The translations under genes were made by a program, and so were the position numbers. Below, one piece after another: positions 6,447-14,664 of a DNA stretch of 63,943 nucleotides. The DNA lies in assembly GCA_000182565.2 (NCBI GenBank), contig KQ257469.1; one strand, written 5' to 3'. The stretch is from Spizellomyces punctatus DAOM BR117 (taxonomy: Eukaryota). How positions within the stretch are numbered: the first letter of the stretch is position 1; each line of letters opens with the position of its first letter. The notes below the pieces were generated by a model that saw nothing but the letters and a program-made list of their open reading frames with translations, was not told the DNA's origin and searched no databases.

Positions 6447-8724
6447 TCATCCCAACCCCTGTGATCTAGCCTCCGTCTCATAAATCAACATGCGCCAGAG
6501 CATCATTACAAACTCTTCAGCTTCCTCATCTAGTGCCTATCAGAAAATTATCAAATCTCTAAAGTCAGCGAAACCCAAGAGACAACCACAACCAACGAAA
6601 AAAAAAATTTGTACTCACTCCCTGCATTTCAGCCAACATGTTATCCGCGCTAGTCCGCTTAACGAGCAATTCCGTGACAAACTCGATCAAATCCTTTTCT
6701 TCTTCGCCAATGTATTCAATGACCTTTTTCTTTATCCATGGACGAAGCTTGTTGTTCATAATCGTCTAACAATCAGGGATGGTTAGTCTACACTTCTGCT
6801 CCAAAAGTGCTCCAACGCTGTACCCACTTCATCCAGAAAGTCCCATTTGATCGACCATGTCCATAAGCCTTCTCGCTCCGTTGGGATAATACCGATCAAA
6901 TCCTGAACTGCCTGCACGCGCTCCTCCTTTGTCATGATCCGGCCTATGACAATTTCCTGTTTCGTTTCCTCATCATCCTCTGGGGCTTGTGGTTCGAGCT
7001 CTTTTCTCGCAAGCTCCGCTTGCTCATCTTCCCGATCCTGTTGATCTCTATCTATTTCTTTTCGACGGGACCGATGTATCCGTGCAAAAAATGCACGTCT
7101 ATCATGTAAATAGTCAGGATTCATATGCATCAACAAACCCAACAACATTAAATCACCAGACCTGTCCTCATCTGTTTTGAAATGTGCATCTTCATCCCAT
7201 TCTGGAAGTATTTTGCTCAACTCTTCCACTCGGGCAGCTAGATTCTCCTTATCACGCTCCTTATCCTTCTCAATTTGTGTGAGCCAGGCTATTCTTCCTT
7301 GCTCTTCCTTTTCCCAACGACTCACGCGCTACAAAGCAAATAATATTAGGAAACACATCGCTGCCTAACAGGCGAGGAACCATACCTCATTGAAGGCTTG
7401 CTGTGCTTCCCACTTCCTTCGCTCTTGTCTCTTCTGCTCTTCCTCCTCGTCATAGTCGTCCTCAACCCTAACCCTCGGTTCATGAGAATGACCGTGATAC
7501 CCGTTCTCCCCTTGCTTCAGTCTTCGAATTCTATTTATGTCCTCCCTCTTTTCCCTCTGGACCCGCTCCATCCGGATTCGCTCCTCGTACTCCTTCTTCA
7601 GACGGTCCTTCTGTGCAGACCTCTCGCGGAACATGGAAATCTCCCTCGAAATGAGCTCCCGTTGTTCTGGGGGCATTTCTGGAGGAAGATCGTCCAGATC
7701 TTCCTTGCCACCAGGTGCCGATGACGGTGTTGGTGATCCTGGCCGGGTCGAGCCTCCATCAGGTATTGAATGAAGGAAAGAATCCACGTCCATTCTTTGA
7801 GCATCATCCCGCATTTGCCTAGCATGGACGAGGACTTGCTCCCGGATTGCCTTATCTTCGTCTTCGTCTTCATGCTACGCAAGTGTGTGAAAATTAAGCT
7901 CCTTGCAACGCATACAGGTAGTCCATAATCAAATTCACATACATTCATCCTCGAGGCCCTGTATTGCTCAACGTGTTTTCGCGCTACTTCATCCACGTTC
8001 AGCTGTAGTGCAATTAGCCGGTGGTCGTGATGCACGTCATAAATGCGGGTTTTCAAAAAAAAGTACCTTGAGAGTCTTGGGCGCTCCACCAGGTACTGCC
8101 AGCTCAATTCCTCGTGCAAGCTCGCCTTGGCCTTCTCCTCCAAGGATCCGCAATGCACGAGATACCGATTCGGCATTCTCATAAACACAAAAGCCAAACC
8201 CTTTAGGCTTGCCGGTTGCATCCTGCATACGTCTCCAATTTCGAACAGGCCCACACAACTGCAAATGACATATTTAGACCGTGTAAGGCAATAGTAGCAT
8301 CAGACAGTCTCTCACGTACCTTTAAAATTCGCTCCATCCACAGATCCGTCACACCGTCCGCAATGGACCCCACAAAGACCGTCGTCGACTTATCCTCCGC
8401 CGTCAGCGGCTTCGGCGGTGGTGCTACTACAGGGGGGGCGACATCGGGACGCACAGAGAGAGCGGGACTCCCCAAAGGTCGTGGAGGTTCCATCCCCGGG
8501 CCAGGACCAAACGGTGGACGATTATCAAAGTGCTGCATTGGGGGACCAGGACGAAAGGGTGGTGGGCCTCCAAATTGAGGGGGAGGTGGACCACGAGGCC
8601 CTGGCCCGTAACCAAATCCAGCAGGTCCGGGACCGTAAGGAGATGGTCCATAGCCCGCACCCGGCGGTGGTCCTCCATAACCAGGGGCGGGATGTGGCGG
8701 ACCGTACTGATATGGAGCTGTCAT
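6447..8724 (-). CDS. RBM25/SNU71-like U1 snRNP-associated protein (Pro-rich, RRM, RE-rich, PWI), spliced
   Basis: RRM TVFVGSI...GKPKGFGFCVY; PWI LRPWIKKKVIEYIGEEE...LIYETEA; stop at 6447; start approximate. Confidence 0.88.
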
Positions 8725-9150
8725 ATTAGAGTGATCATGTCCATAATTACAATACAATGTTAGTCATTTTCATACAGACATAGAGTTTATTGCCGTCTCT
8801 CATACGTACGATATGGTCGATGTGGGTCCATGGTGAGGACGAAAACAGTTCATGCAAGACGATCCCTCAACTTCCCACTCCTACTCAACTTTGTTACCAT
8901 GGCAACAGTCTATTACATCCACAACTTTACCAAGCGTTCCAAACAGCGCGGTGCGATCAAACCCAAAGCGATGAGATGATGATGCGTGCGCAAGCTTGAC
9001 CGTTGGCTTGTTTTACCATCTGCCCAAATTTCTCGAATTACGGACGGAATTTCGTTCAGCAGCTTTAGGAGGAACACAGCTTACCTTAGGGAGCATCACT
9101 ACCGGCCTTGTCGGGCAAGAGTATAAACAAGAACGCTAAACCCGTCAGCT

Positions 9151-10005
9151 ATGGAGCACCTGAACGCTTTGTTGGCCTCTGGCCAATACCACGACGTGCT
9201 GGCAATTATCAAAGGTTTCCGCAATGGAGCCGTATATGGTAAAGAAATGCCGAAATATCGGGGACATACATTCAAGCCTCCAACTGCTCAGACTCTAATT
9301 GAAAACTAGGCGCGAAGGTCCGCTTCCCACATGCACTGGTCATGACTTTCCTCTTTCGAACTGGAAGGTAATTTTGGGCGTCGAAGAACTCTCTCAATAT
9401 GATCGTCTTAGTCACAACTTTATCTAGTTTTGAAGACAAGGCGCGATTCATCCTCAAAGCCACGTTCCAACATAGCCGAAATCTTGCCTTCTTCGTCACG
9501 ATCTACAAAACCCTTATGGCCCTTCAACGGAACATAATGGGGAAAGAACATAATTGGGATGCGTTCGTTGCAGGTGTCATCGGAGGTTACATTGTGTTTG
9601 GGAAGAACAACAACGTCAACAACCAAGTAAGTCAGCGGATAGCACGCAGTGTCCGCAGCCGACTTGCCTCGTAATTATGTCTCTTGTATTTTTACAGATT
9701 GTGCTATACCTTTTCTCGCGTATCCTCATTGGTCTGGCGAAACTCGCGGTAAAAAGCAATGTCGTCGCGGAACCCAAGCACACGTTCTCTGTATTTGCCG
9801 CTCTCGTTTGGGGTATGTAAGATGTTTGGGACAGCATGATTCATCTCTAAATCTTTATTGTGGGTTGATTATAGGTATCGTGATGTGGCTGTTCCGTCAC
9901 AACCGAGATACCCTGCAGAATTCCTTGCAGGCCTCTATGCAGTACCTATACAATGACTCTGAAAACTTTGATACTTTCAGAAACTTCCTGTGGCATAACA
10001 AGTAG
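9151..10005 (+). CDS. PXMP4: Peroxisomal membrane protein 4 (PMP24, Tim17/22 family), spliced
   Basis: IIKGFRNGAVYG (intron) AKVRFPHALVMTFLF, ATFQHSRNLA, QIVLYLFSR, LQASMQYLYNDS. Confidence 0.9.
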
Positions 10006-10159
10006 AAATTCTTCTTGTATTTACAAATAGAGTTCGTGCGGTCTATAAGGGTCGAAGTAGCTTTGATATTTACATGACATATATTGGAAAGGAAAAATGG
10101 AAAAGGGAAACTACATTAATATACAAGGTCTAAGGTAGCTATCATGTCTAATTGACTAT

Positions 10160-13100
10160 TTAGCCCGAGCACATGACGCAGGCATCCCGATTGTCAAGAG
10201 AACATGCCACTGCTGCCATGTTCTCGGCTTCGCTCTTCTCCGAACCTTCATCAGACTTCAACTGCTGCTGATCGACCGTGAACTTAATGGCATCAGCAGC
10301 AGGTCTCGTACGCAGATAGTACATTCCTGGCAAAAGACCAGGTCAGCCGGACATCAAGAGCAGACATCTCATTCGCGCTAGAACTATACCTGTCTTCAAT
10401 CCCTTTTTCCATCCATAGAAATGCATACTGGTCAATTTGCCATAATTGGGCTCCGCCAGGTGGATATTGAGGGATTGGGACTGGTCGATAAACGCGCCAC
10501 GGTCTGCAGCCATGTCAATGATGACTTTCTGCTCAGAGACAAGATGAGAAATCTGGTGCCTCAACAAAGTACGCGCTGATCCCATACCTGCGACAATTCC
10601 CAAACTGTTTTGTAAATTGTCTTGAGTTCATCAGGAATGCTGCTGATACGTTGAATTGATCCGTTGTCAGCAATGATACGGTTCTTCATGTTGTCATTCC
10701 AGAGGTTCAGTTCCGTCAAATCTTTCAACAGATGCGGGTTGACAATTTGAAATTCACCGGCCAGAACGCGACGGGTGTAGATATTGCTTGTGTAAGGTTC
10801 GAAACAGTTGTGCACAACGACTCCGTTGGCGAGAAAGTTGTGCAATCCTTTCACGTTTATGTCGAATACCGGCACCTGACCGGCTGCCCGACGATCGACC
10901 AATTGAAGCTTCATAGTGGGCACCGCCATTGCCTCGATGTCGACAGCGTTCATGTGCATCTTGCCAGCGGCCTCGCCGTTCGCAAACCACTCACGCGCTC
11001 CGAGCTTCTCAAGAAACTCTTCGGCAGACATGACGTGACTGAACTTAAACTGCTTAATCCCGTCCATCACCGATTGAGCAGGGTTAGTCGATGAGTTGGA
11101 TGCACGAAGAATAGTCCTTTGTCGCTTATGGTAGTCGTACAACTGAGAAATCGTTAGAGTCGAGGAGTGCACGTTGGGTTCTGGTTCGTTCTCTTTAAGG
11201 TTCTCAATCGCGAGCTTAGGGGTGTCACTCAGCGCGCCCTTATTTGGGCTTGCCTCGGTATAGACCGCTTTGTGTTGTCTTTTGACTTCCGAGAGGTAGC
11301 GTGACCAAGCCGCTACAACACTGGAACGTTGCGCCTTGTGAGCAGAATAGCGGATACCGATCTTGTCCATGAAAATGTGCTGCGAGGAAGCATTGGGCAG
11401 AAATCCGATGCGCGCGCATACGTGCTTCAACTCTCCGCAGCAATAGGGTTCGCCATTCTTATTCTGAACATTGCCTACGTTGATGATTGAAGCGCCATGC
11501 ACACCGGCCTTGGACAGAAGCTCGCACAGTTGCTCCATGGCCGTAATCAAGGACTCGCGGTGCATAGCACATGCAGACTGCGATAGTCGAATGGAGCTGA
11601 ACATCTGAGTCTGGTCGCAATTGGCGACGATAACAGGATCCCAGCCGTCACCACCAAAGAGGCCTGCTAGAAACTCGCGACGCACTGAGGCTGGGCACGA
11701 TGCATCCAACACAAATGAAGGCCACGATACGACGGATGCGCAACGCTCTCCGCATGTCATGCCGGCCAGCTCACGAATCGCGCTGGCTACCGGACCGGTC
11801 ATCACGACCTCAAAACAGTTGCGCGCGTTGACACGATAAGAGACGTTGGTGCCTCCAGACAGAAGCCTGTAGTCCTTGAGAAATCCGTCGCGATCAAGTG
11901 TGTGACCGAGCACAGCGGTAACCTTACAAGACTGAACAGATCCATTTGCGCGCACCAGGCCGACGATGCGCGCAAGCGCCAAGACCTTCTCGCGATTGTT
12001 AGCCATGCACAGCCGTCCAATGCAGGTGTCTAAGGTCCAATCGGACTCATCTTCACCGACTAAGTCCAAGGTGCCTGTCAGCCCAAGCATCACAGGGGTG
12101 CCACAAATGTCGATCTTGGACGCCTCGCGCCAGGTGCCGTCAGCTAGTAGGAACTTGTGATCAGGGGTGCACGTCAAGATGCGGCCGTCTTCAAACGTCA
12201 GGCGCACCACCTCCTTCACAGCACGAGGGAGGTGCTCAGTCACAGTGGCGGACACCATTCCCTTGACGATGGGGGAATAGGCAACGACTTCATCCCCGGG
12301 ACGTACATCCTTGATGGGCAGGCTGGTTCCATTAGCCAGAGTTACTGGCGTGTCCCCCGCGAAACACTCATTATTCCCCAGGATTTGCGACGTAGACGCT
12401 GTTGGCATTGGTGCAACCAATAAACTGTTACGAACCCCATGCTCTGCGATACGTGCACGCAAACCTTCCCAGTCCCACATGTCTGACACCTGGACGTTCC
12501 ACATGTCGGGCTGAAGAATACCCTTGCTAACCGGTGACCCTGGGTACGTCTGGTAATGCCCTTGTTCTTTGGCCAGTTCGCATGAAGCTTCCAAAGCAGC
12601 GAAATAAATCGTTTCAAAGATTTGACGGTTCAGTTTCCGTGCACCGTCCGAGTCAAATGGCAGGCGCAGTTTAATGAATGTATCAGCTAGGCCTTGAACA
12701 CCCAACCCAATAGGGCGATGTCGCATGTTGGAGCGACGGGCTTCTTCGACAGGATAATAATTGATATCGATGATCTTGTTCAGATTTCTAGTGATCACCT
12801 TTGTCACCTGCGAGATTAAAAACGTAAGAGAGCACGTCAGTATACGATATAGTACGGTGATGAGCTGAGTGCTGAGTACCTGACGAAGTTTCTCAAAATT
12901 GTAGAACAAATTCCCGTCTTCTTTCATGACAAAGCTTGGAAGCGCAATGGATGCAAGATTGCAAACCGCAACTTCATCAGGGGAAGAGTACTCTACGATT
13001 TCGGTACACAAATTGCTGCACTTGATAGTACCAAGATTTTGCTGGTTTGACTTGCCATTACACGCATCCTTGTACAACATGAAGGGGGTCCCAGTCTCAA

Positions 13101-14664
13101 CCTGCGACTCGAGAATTGCATACCACAGCTTCTGCGCTTTCACTGTCCTCCTTGCACGCCCCTCAGCTTCGTAGCGTTCGTACAATTCCTGATGACATGG
13201 AACGTGAATGACTGCAACGAGATGTGAACGCAGAACGGATAGTTCCCCACCACAAACTTTGCACCCCAAACGTCTTCGAGGCCGGGAGCTTCTGAAGGGC
13301 AGAACAGACTCCAGTCGCCGTTCTTTTCCACCCGCTCCATGAATAGATCTGGGACCTACACGCCTAACATGAGACGGAAATCCTAACCGAATAGAGATGG
13401 GAAACTCACCCAAAGAGCGTAAAACAATTCACGTGCTCGAGTTTCCTCTTTGCCGGTGTTTTTCTTGAGTTCAAGGAACTTCGCCAATTTTAGCATAACT
13501 TTTGGAGTAGAAAATATTATTATAATTTACCTCGAAGACATCCGCATGCCATGGCTCCAAGTAAATGGCAAAGGCACCAGGGCGCTTGTTACCGCCTTGG
13601 TCGACATAGCGAGCGGTGTTGTTGTACACCCTGAGCATAGGGACGATCCCGTTTGACTGGCCGTTCGTGCCCGCAATGTAAGATCCAAGTGCGCGGATTT
13701 TATGAATGTTGAGGCCGATACCACCGGCCGTCTTGGAAATCATCGCACACGTCTTCAGGGTATCGTATATACCCTCAATAGAATCATCCTTCATGGTCAG
13801 AAGGAAACAGCTCGAGAGCTGCGGCCGGGGTGTGCCTGCGTTGAAGAGTGTCGGGGATGCATGTGTGAAATACTTCTCCGACAATAACTCATAGGTTTCA
13901 ATTGCTGCCTCCACATCTTCGCCGTGGATGCCAACTGCCACACGCATGAGCATGTGTTGCGGACGCTCTGCAACTTTGCCCGTGATTCGGAGGAGATACG
14001 ATCGTTCGAGCGTCTTAAAACCAAAGTAATTATAGTTGAAGTCTCGATCGTAAATAATGGCAGAGTTGAGGCGATCTGCGTTTTTCATGACTGCTTGATA
14101 CGTCTCTTCAGAAACCATGGGAGCAGGCTTTTGGTTTTTAGGATTGACGTAGTTATAAAGATCTTCAATGACTTGTGAGAATTGTTTCTTTGTCTCCTTG
14201 TGAAGATTCGATACGGCTATTCGGGCAGCAAGAATAGCATAGTCTGGATGTTTGGTCTATTATCCTAAGACAATCAGTAAAAGCTGTCAAGGTGCGCAGG
14301 ATCGGATGCAATCCTACCGTTAAATACGCAGCGGTCTCTGCAGCCAGATTGTCCAGCTCAACCGTAGTAACTCCCTGGTAAACCCCCGTGATGACCTGGA
14401 AAAAGTGGCAGATTGTCAGCAATTGGCTCAGACCGAAAATGACAAGCAGCAGGCGGATACCTTCTGCGCAACTTCGGCGGGATCCACAAAATTCATATCC
14501 AAACCATAACAGAGCTTCATAATACGTGAAGTTATCTTGTCAAAAGCAACCCGCTCGCGGCGGCCATCTGATGTGGAGAACCGTGTTAGGAATTGGTGCG
14601 TTAAAGTTCGGCTTTAGCATAGCAAAGTTTATCGTCATTGTCTACCTCTTTTGAAGACGAACAT
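10160..14664 (-). CDS. RNR1: Ribonucleoside-diphosphate reductase large subunit (class Ia), spliced, containing an in-frame intein
   Basis: ATP cone [30 protein letters not shown]; catalytic [35 protein letters not shown]-terminal [14 protein letters not shown] stop. Confidence 0.97.
10807..12366 (-). mobile_element. Intein (520 aa) with LAGLIDADG homing endonuclease domain in RNR1
   Basis: Block [14 protein letters not shown], block [11 protein letters not shown], block C-like IVGLVRANG, block [12 protein letters not shown], block [17 protein letters not shown], block G VVHN followed by Cys+1; removal restores [14 protein letters not shown]. Confidence 0.96.

What the first reader, a model, noticed from the sequence alone, without database searches (positions are those of the whole stretch)
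10807..12366. Homing-endonuclease intein in a nuclear fungal ribonucleotide reductase large subunit
Seen: 1560 nt (520 aa) in-frame insertion between SQILGNNE and CFEPYTSN. It has Cys1, a TPDH block B, terminal His-Asn, Cys+1 and a central LAGLIDADG region, and the host gene is otherwise complete and carries spliceosomal introns. Established: eukaryotic nuclear inteins are rare and mostly known from VMA1, PRP8, RNA polymerase subunits, GLT1, CHS2, ThrRS and eIF5B, while RNR inteins are typical of prokaryotes, phages and large DNA viruses. The site is just after the substrate-binding PTASTS loop, not at the catalytic NxCxE cysteine. Inference: a rare or undescribed nuclear intein host/site, in which dNTP synthesis depends on protein splicing. 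I cannot confirm novelty without a search.
Basis: partly seen in the sequence, partly recalled or inferred. Interest (0 to 1): 0.92.

Follow-up and report, generated by a model that had tools for sequence, protein, structure and literature searches.

The report
Intein inside chytrid ribonucleotide reductase gene
A self-splicing protein insert (intein) carrying a decaying homing endonuclease interrupts the large-subunit ribonucleotide reductase gene of the chytrid fungus Spizellomyces, and its nearest relatives sit at the same spot in giant-virus-like and jakobid genes, which points to transfer between very distant genomes.

Summary
Window 12366..10807 (minus strand) encodes a 520-aa intein in exon 8 of the RNR large-subunit gene of Spizellomyces punctatus DAOM BR117. 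That gene has 10 exons and lies at 14664..10160. All splicing residues are present: Cys1, T67-x-x-H70, H519-N520 and Cys+1. Pfam and TIGRFAM intein models score above their cut-offs. An AlphaFold model matches solved endonuclease-containing inteins.

New here:
- Spizellomyces sp. 'palustris' carries the same intein. The other 119 of the 120 closest RNR1 proteins listed carry no intein domain.
- Between the two species the splicing domain is about as conserved as the host protein. The endonuclease and linker evolve three to seven times faster.
- The catalytic Asp of LAGLIDADG motif 1 is Asn in both species, so the endonuclease is probably inactive or only a nickase.
- The intein's closest clade sits at the same site in Andalucia godoyi and in an RNR 97% identical to an intein-free RNR on a giant-virus MAG contig. 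Host and intein trees disagree, so the intein was acquired horizontally, possibly through a virus.

RNA evidence is only partial. Eight literature searches found no description of it. I rate it a new member of a known kind, of moderate interest.

The parts
10160..14664 (-). Host gene: class Ia ribonucleotide reductase large subunit (RNR1) of Spizellomyces punctatus. It has 10 exons and 9 introns, and the stop codon is at 10160-10162.
   Evidence: Exact peptide-to-DNA mapping of the NCBI protein P0037. Precomputed Pfam domains PF02867, PF00317 and PF03477. The host protein (extein) nests among chytrid RNR1 sequences. Intron 6 is removed in an RNA-library contig, with a joint from 13187 to 13250.
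10588..12810 (-). Exon 8, which holds the whole intein plus 148 host-protein codons upstream and 73 downstream.
   Evidence: There is no intron in the 1560-nt intein, against 9 in 2394 nt of host coding sequence (5.9 expected, Poisson P = 0.003).
10807..12366 (-). Intein coding sequence, 520 codons from Cys1 to Asn520.
   Evidence: AlphaFold model with mean pLDDT 81.5. The top Foldseek matches are endonuclease-containing inteins.
12052..12366 (-). N-terminal Hint splicing region, residues 1-105, with Cys1 and block B T67-P-D-H70.
   Evidence: TIGR01445 covers residues 1-73. Residues 2-85 align to the Npu/Ssp DnaB and Mtu RecA mini-inteins. S. punctatus and S. 'palustris' differ at 4 of 105 residues.
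11242..12051 (-). LAGLIDADG endonuclease core, residues 106-375.
   Evidence: The modelled helices H121-141 and H226-238 each end at a motif. Foldseek matches I-Tsp061I with TMt 0.62 and also matches PI-PfuI, PI-SceI and TliVMA. 21 of 270 residues differ from S. 'palustris'. There is no PF14528 hit for this sequence, against 5 of the 7 alignment members scanned.
11938..11970 (-). LAGLIDADG motif 1, residues 133-143. The catalytic position is Asn141 (codon AAT at 11946..11944), where relatives have Asp.
   Evidence: In the alignment of 11 allelic inteins, 7 have Asp, S. punctatus has Asn, Andalucia has Gly, 1 is degenerate and 1 has the domain deleted. The Asn is shared with S. 'palustris'. I read the codon.
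11644..11676 (-). LAGLIDADG motif 2, residues 231-241, with Asp240 retained.
   Evidence: E231, F232, A234, G235, F237, G238, G239, D240 and G241 are invariant in alignment A1.
10927..11241 (-). Helical linker between the endonuclease core and the C-terminal splicing region, residues 376-480. It includes an extra segment of about 17 residues seen only in Spizellomyces.
   Evidence: pLDDT is below 50 at residues 425-441 and 464-470. This is the fastest-evolving part: 17 of 105 residues differ and there are 5 gap columns. The insertion is visible in the alignment.
10807..10926 (-). C-terminal Hint splicing region, residues 481-520 (blocks F and G), ending in His519-Asn520.
   Evidence: TIGR01443 covers residues 499-520. 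Residues 490-520 align to the Npu DnaB intein. 1 of 40 residues differs from S. 'palustris'.
10804..10806 (-). Cys+1 codon (TGT), the first residue of the C-extein and the nucleophile for the second splicing step.
   Evidence: It is a native residue of intein-free RNR1 sequences. 109 of the 117 listed relatives whose site was read have Cys here, 7 have Ala and 1 has Ser.

Best explanation
This is a canonical class-1 intein with an embedded two-motif LAGLIDADG endonuclease. It is encoded in frame inside the nuclear RNR1 gene of Spizellomyces.

Mechanism, inferred from the intact motifs and not assayed here:
1. The gene is transcribed and its nine spliceosomal introns are removed.
2. A 1312-aa precursor is translated.
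3. The Hint domain excises itself. This proceeds by an N-S acyl shift at Cys1, transfer of the N-extein to Cys+1, cyclisation of Asn520 assisted by His519, and an S-N shift.
4. The products are a 792-aa Rnr1 with the native ...GNNE-CFEPY... sequence near the substrate-phosphate loop, and a free 520-aa intein.

The element entered by homing or gene conversion from an allelic intein in a foreign RNR gene. A giant virus is the most plausible carrier. This happened in an ancestor of S. punctatus and S. sp. 'palustris', after the split from the other sampled chytrids. It has been inherited vertically since.

The splicing domain is held by purifying selection, because RNR1 is useless without splicing. 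The endonuclease is decaying. One catalytic Asp is now Asn, its substitution rate is raised, and its Pfam signature is lost. It is therefore most likely inactive or at best a nickase.
For: Intein identity: Pfam and TIGRFAM models score above their cut-offs. The PDB profile search hits mini-inteins down to E 8e-15. The model has pLDDT 81.5, and its top Foldseek hits are TliVMA, PI-PfuI, PI-TkoII and PI-SceI, all at probability 1.00. Every invariant splicing residue of the family is present.

The host gene is fungal and vertically inherited:
- The host protein (extein) is 84-89% identical to other chytrid RNR1 sequences.
- It nests with them in the tree, with SH-aLRT 100 with S. 'palustris' and 97 with the next relative.
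- The gene has 9 introns.

Restricted distribution:
- Only 1 of the 120 listed host-protein relatives has an intein domain.
- 117 of the other 119 show an uninterrupted site.
- S. 'palustris' has the same intein at the same site.

Selection pattern between the two species:
- Host protein: 18 of 786 residues differ.
- Hint regions: 5 of 145 differ.
- Endonuclease core: 21 of 270 differ.
- Linker: 17 of 105 differ.
- Fisher tests give p = 0.012 for Hint against endonuclease plus linker, and p = 1e-4 for host protein against endonuclease core.

Endonuclease decay: Asn141 stands where 7 of 11 allelic inteins have Asp. There is no PF14528 hit, against 5 of 7 alignment members scanned.

Horizontal origin:
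- The intein clade of Spizellomyces, Andalucia, P0038, P0039 and P0079 has support 100/99. Their host proteins are scattered across the RNR tree.
- The host protein of P0038 is 97% identical to an intein-free RNR on a giant-virus MAG contig, L081.
- The intein has no intron, against 5.9 expected.
- Intein GC3 is 0.627 against 0.541 for the host coding sequence.

Context from the literature: giant viruses that infect chytrids, and that carry RNR among their core genes, have been described (passages of PMC13533422).

RNA: a root metatranscriptome holds a contig inside the intein (11342-11765, 3 mismatches). It also holds a contig of the same gene with intron 6 spliced out.
Against: No read or contig bridges either intein-extein junction in an RNA library. 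The same metatranscriptome also holds a piece with an intron retained (10494-10717), so DNA or pre-mRNA is present in it. The one same-species RNA run covers only the 3' end of the gene.

Protein splicing and endonuclease activity were not assayed and cannot be with these tools.

The viral route is circumstantial:
- The intein-bearing P0038 contig itself was not recovered in IMG/VR. Only empty alleles were.
- The giant-virus loci have 25-28% GC, against 55% for the Spizellomyces intein.
- Within the six-member clade the branching order is unresolved, so no donor can be named.

An Asp-to-Asn change in one motif might leave nicking activity. That statement is recalled knowledge of LAGLIDADG enzymes and comes from no call.
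Confidence: 0.85

Rival explanations
1. The endonuclease is still an active homing enzyme, and the element is currently mobile in Spizellomyces populations.
For: The 520-codon frame is intact in two species. Motif 2 keeps Asp240. The fold is a complete LAGLIDADG domain. Filled and empty alleles coexist among closely related giant-virus-like RNRs, P0038 and L081 at 97% identity, so the family is or recently was mobile somewhere.
Against: The motif-1 catalytic Asp is Asn in both species. The endonuclease and linker evolve 3-7 times faster than the Hint regions and the host protein. There is no PF14528 match. The open frame is enforced anyway, because a stop would destroy RNR1, so it says nothing about nuclease function.
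Confidence: 0.12
2. The intein has been co-opted as a conditional switch, with redox- or stress-dependent splicing, that gates the supply of active Rnr1.
For: Both nucleophiles are cysteines, and the site lies 8 residues after the PTASTS loop. The Hint domain is conserved as strongly as the host protein. Conditional splicing of other inteins is known (recalled, from no call).
Against: Nothing in my data distinguishes this from plain selection for efficient splicing. The nearest intein-free relatives manage without it. The extra domains decay rather than show conservation.
Confidence: 0.08
3. The insert is removed at the RNA level, or the interrupted gene is a dead copy and another RNR1 does the work.
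For: No RNA read bridges the junctions. No whole genome was available to search for a paralogue.
Against: The borders are not GT..AG: the insert ends ...CAC AAC and is followed by TGT. The introns of this gene whose ends were mapped are about 60 nt, not 1560. The insert is conserved as protein at 57-59% identity to relatives in other kingdoms and at 91.7% to the sister species. The host protein is 97.7% identical between the two species and keeps its NLCTE and PTASTS motifs. Only one S. punctatus RNR1 appears among the 120 listed relatives. An RNA-library contig lies inside the insert.
Confidence: 0.03
4. The intein came from another cellular eukaryote or a bacterium, not from a giant virus.
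For: The jakobid Andalucia godoyi carries a clade member, and the clade is a polytomy. The Spizellomyces intein has 55% GC against 25-28% for the giant-virus loci. The more distant clade of L164, P0049 and P0051 sits on compact, unassigned contigs.
Against: No mechanism is known that would bring two eukaryotes' nuclear RNR genes together. A virus replicating in the cell supplies one. RNR is a core gene of chytrid-infecting giant viruses. P0038 shows this allele in an RNR 97% identical to that of a giant-virus MAG contig, which has an empty site.
Confidence: 0.3

Closest known systems
RNR large-subunit (RIR1) inteins of large DNA viruses: Chilo iridescent virus, CroV (RIR1-h), Marseillevirus and Lausannevirus
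   Same: The host protein is the same, and the architecture is Hint plus LAGLIDADG, often with a remnant endonuclease (Table 3 of PMC3423634; PMC1635734). In my own data this very site is filled in P0038, whose RNR is 97% identical to that of a giant-virus MAG contig.
   Different: Here the host is a nuclear, intron-bearing fungal gene. I could not establish whether the published viral inteins occupy this exact site. InBase site letters are not available to me and those sequences were not fetched.
Fungal nuclear inteins in PRP8 and VMA1 (PI-SceI), and the chytrid inteins in RNA polymerase subunits, eIF5B and PRP8, including the S. punctatus PRP8 intein
   Same: These are nuclear-encoded class-1 inteins with LAGLIDADG domains at varying stages of decay and with patchy distribution among fungi (Table 1 of PMC5784728; PMC3749507). 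PI-SceI is among the top structural matches.
   Different: The host gene and site differ. Sequence relatedness is low: the PDB profile search gives E 0.38 to PI-SceI and only over residues 1-39. The nearest sequence relatives are RNR, RPB2, PolB and aconitase inteins, many of them on giant-virus MAG contigs.
Anaeramoeba nuclear inteins shared with Nucleocytoviricota (PMC10710043)
   Same: The inferred dynamics are the same: allelic inteins shared between eukaryotic nuclear genes and giant-virus genes, with viruses proposed as carriers (passages read).
   Different: The organism is a fungus, there is a single intein, and the host protein is RNR. In that paper 'ribonucleotide reductase' occurs only in the reference list.

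Membership tests
Intein (class 1, Hint superfamily) | N-terminal nucleophile (Cys or Ser at position 1) | tested here: met
   Cys1. It is invariant in alignment A1.
Intein (class 1, Hint superfamily) | Block B T-x-x-H motif | tested here: met
   T67-P-D-H70. T67 and H70 are invariant in A1.
Intein (class 1, Hint superfamily) | C-terminal His-Asn followed by Cys, Ser or Thr at +1 | tested here: met
   H519-N520, then Cys. TIGR01443 scores 26.1 bits against a cut-off of 15.6.
Intein (class 1, Hint superfamily) | Curated profile match and Hint fold | tested here: met
   PF14890 scores 47.9 bits against a cut-off of 35.8. TIGR01445 scores 35.4 against 24.5. Foldseek matches mini-inteins at rmsd 1.4-1.7 A over 97-100 alignment columns.
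Intein (class 1, Hint superfamily) | In-frame insertion at a conserved site that is uninterrupted in homologues | tested here: met
   117 of the 119 listed relatives have a contiguous site. The other 2 did not match my pattern and were not examined further. L081 is empty at 97% host-protein identity to the filled P0038.
Intein (class 1, Hint superfamily) | Protein splicing demonstrated | not testable with these tools
   This needs a precursor expression assay or proteomics.
LAGLIDADG homing endonuclease (two-motif, intein-borne) | Two LAGLIDADG helices in an alpha-beta-beta-alpha-beta-beta-alpha pseudo-dimer fold | tested here: met
   The motifs lie at residues 133-143 and 231-241, at the ends of modelled helices. 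Foldseek matches I-Tsp061I with TMt 0.62 and also matches PI-PfuI and PI-SceI.
LAGLIDADG homing endonuclease (two-motif, intein-borne) | Catalytic acidic residue closing each motif | tested here: not met
   Motif 1 has Asn141, where 7 of 11 allelic inteins have Asp. Motif 2 keeps Asp240.
LAGLIDADG homing endonuclease (two-motif, intein-borne) | Curated profile match (PF14528 LAGLIDADG_3) | tested here: not met
   There is no hit at E <= 1 for this sequence. 5 of the 7 members of A1 hit at E <= 0.01.
LAGLIDADG homing endonuclease (two-motif, intein-borne) | Site-specific DNA cleavage | not testable with these tools
   This needs an in vitro cleavage assay on an intein-free RNR1 site.
Class Ia ribonucleotide reductase alpha subunit (host protein) | ATP-cone, all-alpha and barrel domains, with the catalytic N-x-C-x-E motif | tested here: met
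   PF03477, PF00317 and PF02867 on P0037. PF02867 at E 7e-115 on exons 7-8. NLCTE is present. The flank matches human RRM1 and yeast Rnr1 structures at E 1e-70.

The most novel reading that the evidence does not exclude
The Spizellomyces RNR1 intein is a datable footprint of a giant-virus infection of a chytrid ancestor. On this reading, a virus-borne RNR gene carrying an active allele of this intein converted the host's nuclear RNR1 by homing during infection.

That would make RNR, after the RNA polymerase subunits and the Anaeramoeba cases, a further gene in which viruses and their eukaryotic hosts exchange inteins. As far as I could find, it would be the first such case in a fungus and in a nucleotide-metabolism gene. 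The same clade in the jakobid Andalucia would then mark an independent event of the same kind.
Probability: 0.35. Interest if true: 0.7.

Novelty: new member of a known kind. Interest (0 to 1): 0.55.

Why it matters
RNR makes all dNTPs. If no second RNR1 exists, DNA synthesis in these fungi depends on a protein-splicing step.

The 2018 survey of eukaryotic inteins reports RNR inteins only from viral DNA. The 2023 Anaeramoeba paper states that no nuclear DNA-processing protein had previously been reported to host an intein. A nuclear RNR intein would therefore extend the list of eukaryotic nuclear intein hosts. This one is allelic with a copy in a giant-virus-like RNR and with a jakobid copy, so it also gives a concrete case for testing virus-mediated intein transfer.

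S. punctatus can be genetically transformed (PMC7213984, title and abstract seen in the listing). Deletion, splicing-dead and endonuclease tests are therefore feasible in the native host.

The two-species comparison also shows plainly which part of such an element selection retains. The splicing domain is kept and the endonuclease is not.

Tried and rejected
- The genome search 'own': no genome is held for this window, so I could not search for a paralogue or for other inteins in the genome.
- RNA evidence. The single read-laying run gave no junction-bridging RNA. Run X7, the same species, covers only 10100-10560. Its loose ends at 10329 are consistent with removal of the last intron (26 reads, agreement 0.59). 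X3 and X4 look like DNA, because their contigs run through introns, and they may come from the source assembly. X4 contigs bridge both intein junctions (10409-11110 and 12290-13072) with no mismatch, but that is not independent evidence.
- The IMG/VR scan with the single intein found only N-terminal Hint similarity. The scan with P0041 found nothing.
- The scan with alignment A1 confirmed 325 relatives and kept 80. None of these is in an RNR at this site.
It returned one RNR-site allele, L164, out of 79 loci, and none of the close relatives at 55-59% identity. Those contigs and their neighbouring genes remain unseen.
- Cluster look-up gave no organism names for 9 of the 10 unnamed relatives.
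- The phage collection gave 52 records. None covers 80% of the query. The hits are Hint regions in helicase and terminase genes, or host-protein flank only. The Cellulophaga phage RNR is 789 aa and intein-free.
- GC and GC3 differences are modest and do not point to a donor.
- My first site pattern was wrong and was corrected.
- The host categories (21 PolB-like, 9 RPB2-like, 111 unclassified) come from crude motifs and should not be relied on.
- Supplementary tables of PMC5784728, which list every nuclear intein the authors found, are closed. If they list an S. punctatus RNR intein, the novelty claim falls.
Full report
**What is there.**
The finding's coordinates are exact, but the feature lies on the minus strand. 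Window 12366..10807 translates without a stop into 520 residues. The surrounding long open frame reads ...[15 protein letters not shown], then the insert from [10 protein letters not shown]... to ...NGVVVHN, then [10 protein letters not shown]....

Pfam Intein_splicing (PF14890) matches residues 9-520 at 47.9 bits, above its cut-off of 35.8. The TIGRFAM N- and C-terminal intein models both score above their cut-offs. Solved mini-inteins (Npu and Ssp DnaB, Mtu RecA, DnaE) align to both ends. The splicing residues Cys1, Thr67, His70, His519, Asn520 and Cys+1 are all present. The first five are invariant in an alignment of seven allelic inteins, and Cys+1 is present in all 11 intein-bearing proteins read.

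**Organism and host gene.**
The intein is 100% identical to residues 619-1138 of a 1312-aa NCBI protein. That protein is named 'ribonucleoside-diphosphate reductase large chain' of Spizellomyces punctatus DAOM BR117 (KNC96410.1 / XP_016604450.1). The name does not mention an intein.

Mapping the protein onto the window gives a gene of 10 exons at 14664..10160 (minus strand). The whole intein lies in exon 8, at 12810..10588. The host protein (extein) is 792 aa.

An RNA-library contig confirms removal of intron 6, with a joint from 13187 to 13250. The insertion point aligns to position 615/616 of human RRM1 and to 619/620 of yeast Rnr1. That is eight residues after the PTAST loop. From memory, this loop binds the substrate phosphates; I did not test that. 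The site is far from the catalytic NLCTE motif.

**Structure and the endonuclease.**
An AlphaFold model built on the seven-sequence alignment has mean pLDDT 81.5 and pTM 0.82. Its best Foldseek matches in the PDB are endonuclease-containing inteins: TliVMA, PI-PfuI, PhoVMA, PI-TkoII and PI-SceI, all at probability 1.00. The free-standing LAGLIDADG enzyme I-Tsp061I matches with TMt 0.62. Whole-chain TM scores are low because domain orientations differ.

There are two LAGLIDADG-type motifs, at residues 133-143 and 231-241. Each closes a modelled helix.

- In motif 1, the position that is Asp in 7 of 11 allelic inteins is Asn141 here. The codon is AAT, one transition from GAT.
- At that position Andalucia has Gly, one relative is degenerate, and one is a 194-aa mini-intein that has lost the domain.
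- Motif 2 keeps Asp240.
- PF14528 (LAGLIDADG_3) is not detected in this sequence even at E <= 1. It is detected in 5 of the 7 alignment members scanned.

From recalled knowledge of LAGLIDADG enzymes, losing one of the two metal-binding acids abolishes cleavage or leaves a nickase. No call tested this.

**Distribution among fungi.**
I searched with the N-extein (residues 1-640). Of the 120 best relatives listed, only the query carries an intein domain.

- Of the other 119, 98 match a strict pattern for the uninterrupted site.
- 19 more show the site uninterrupted with variant residues.
- 2 animal-labelled entries did not match my pattern and were not examined further.

The intein-free set includes the nearest relatives at 84-89% identity. 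These are labelled Phlyctochytrium arcticum, Gaertneriomyces, Borealophlyctis, Powellomyces, Fimicolochytrium, Geranomyces, Thoreauomyces and Rhizophlyctis.

The 90%-identity cluster of the S. punctatus protein has one other member, from Spizellomyces sp. 'palustris' (TPX64541.1, 1336 aa). It has the same intein at the same site, 527 aa long, and the same Asn in motif 1. The element therefore predates the split of these two species. It is absent from every other sampled lineage.

**Which parts are under selection.**
The table compares the two Spizellomyces proteins.

| Region | Residues that differ | Identity |
|---|---|---|
| Host protein (extein) | 18 of 786 | 97.7% |
| Whole intein | 43 of 520, plus 7 gap columns | 91.7% |
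| Hint N region | 4 of 105 | 96.2% |
| Hint C region | 1 of 40 | 97.5% |
| Endonuclease core | 21 of 270 | 92.2% |
| Linker | 17 of 105 | 83.8% |

The Hint regions do not differ from the host protein (Fisher p = 0.38). The endonuclease core does (p = 1e-4). Hint against endonuclease plus linker gives p = 0.012.

This is the pattern expected of a fixed intein. Splicing must be kept because the host enzyme is essential. The nuclease no longer has empty targets and drifts.

**Relatives elsewhere and origin.**
Allelic inteins occupy exactly this site in 18 sequences in all. Eleven were read (including this one). The others are S. 'palustris', locus L164 and five further representatives.

A whole-library profile search found 512 clusters (at 50% identity) of the wider intein family at E <= 1e-30. 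Eight of the best 150 are RNRs filled at this site.

In the intein tree, the two Spizellomyces copies join Andalucia godoyi (a jakobid; EukProt ANDGO_06409), P0038, P0039 and the mini-intein P0079. That clade has support 100/99 and is unresolved inside. Pairwise identity to the Spizellomyces intein is 57-59%.

The host proteins tell a different story:

- Spizellomyces nests inside chytrid fungi.
- Andalucia and P0079 branch just outside the animal-fungal group.
- P0038 groups with three loci on contigs labelled as giant-virus MAGs.
- P0039 is a very long branch.
- Two further filled groups stand apart from all of these.

The host protein of P0038 is 97% identical to the RNR of locus L081, which comes from a giant-virus MAG contig and is intein-free at this site. 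Two further giant-virus loci at 84% identity are empty here, but carry a different intein at the catalytic-cysteine site. So this allele shows presence/absence variation among closely related giant-virus-like RNR genes.

Three more observations fit a later arrival in the fungal gene:

- The intein has no intron, where the host coding sequence's intron density predicts 5.9 (P = 0.003).
- Its GC3 is 0.627, against 0.541 for the host coding sequence.
- The reconstructed 60-nt target differs from the viral empty site at only 14 positions, all of them synonymous. The encoded 20 residues are identical.

Passages of a 2026 paper report giant viruses (Mycodnaviridae) that infect chytrids. These viruses have RNR among their core genes, and capsid-gene relics occur in Gaertneriomyces and Fimicolochytrium.

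Together this makes virus-mediated homing the most plausible route, but it is not shown. The giant-virus loci have 25-28% GC, against 55% for the intein. No donor can be named.

**RNA evidence.**
It is partial. The same-species RNA run covers only the 3' end of the gene. A root metatranscriptome holds five contigs of this gene:

- One has intron 6 removed.
- One retains an intron (10494-10717).
- One lies just upstream of the intein (12427-12591).
- One lies downstream of it in host coding sequence.
- One lies inside the intein (11342-11765, 3 mismatches).

None bridges a junction. Removal as an intron is nonetheless very unlikely. The borders are not GT..AG. The introns of this gene whose ends were mapped are about 60 nt. 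The insert is also conserved as protein across kingdoms.

**What is in print.**
I read the abstract, sections 5 (in part) and 7, and passages of the 2018 survey of eukaryotic inteins. It places RNR inteins in viral DNA only. Its Table 1 of the most common nuclear hosts has no RNR, and the word Spizellomyces is absent from its main text.

The 2023 Anaeramoeba paper (passages read) states that no nucleus-encoded DNA-processing protein had been reported to host an intein. It also states that RNA polymerase subunits were the only hosts shared by eukaryotes and viruses.

Eight full-text searches found no description of a fungal, chytrid or Andalucia RNR intein. The known S. punctatus intein is in PRP8. 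The sequence itself has been public for years.

**Verdict.**
This is a real, very probably splicing-competent intein in a new nuclear host gene. Its endonuclease is decaying. It is shared by two Spizellomyces species and was acquired horizontally, plausibly through a giant virus. It is a new member of a known kind. It is of moderate interest to specialists in inteins and in giant-virus/host gene exchange, and it can be tested in a chytrid that can be transformed.

Noticed in passing
window 10804-10806 (Cys+1 codon), compared with proteins P0159, P0166, P0170, P0175, P0176, P0181, P0224 and P0239: The +1 residue is not fixed in fungi. Seven listed chytrid-group RNR1 proteins have Ala at this position (among them Gaertneriomyces JEL0708, both Batrachochytrium species and Hyaloraphidium), and Sorochytrium has Ser. 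An Ala allele could not support the second splicing step, so such lineages would be poor recipients for this intein.
   Followed up: partly
L082 1345-4875, L083 140-3658, and proteins P0040, P0041 and P0079: Several RNRs related to the carriers of this intein hold a second, different intein. In L082, L083, P0041 and P0079 it sits at the catalytic cysteine (SSNLC|...). In Andalucia (P0040) it sits after ...RYVDQ. RNR is a multi-site intein target in these genomes.
   Followed up: no
window 11414 and 11422: The root-metatranscriptome contig inside the intein differs from the window by G>A at these two positions and at one further base. By my reading of the frame, 11414 changes Ala318 to Val, which is the residue S. 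'palustris' has, and 11422 is a third-codon position. The contig has too few differences to be S. 'palustris', so a third, environmental Spizellomyces-like source carries the intein.
   Followed up: partly
window 11040-11100 approx. (intein residues ~420-440): Both Spizellomyces inteins have an extra, low-confidence segment of about 17 residues in the linker. It is rich in Ser, Asn and Thr and is absent from all other allelic inteins.
   Followed up: no
protein P0039: This intein-bearing RNR has an extremely divergent host protein, with an end branch of 5.67 changes per column. Its intein, in contrast, is an ordinary member of the closest clade, with a branch of 0.25. It may be a degenerating host gene around a conserved intein, or a very fast-evolving viral RNR.
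   Followed up: no
window 9127-10005 (+): The neighbouring gene on the other strand has several exons and encodes a protein of the Tim17/Tim22/Tim23/Pmp24 family (PF02466, E 1.9e-11 on the exon at 9372-9629). The proline-rich open frame at 8203-8763 (-) has no Pfam match at E <= 0.001.
   Followed up: partly
protein P0158 (labelled Phlyctochytrium arcticum): NCBI taxonomy places this species in Chytridiales. Its RNR1 is the closest intein-free relative of Spizellomyces, at 89% identity and with SH-aLRT 97 as sister. That would fit Spizellomycetales better.
   Followed up: no
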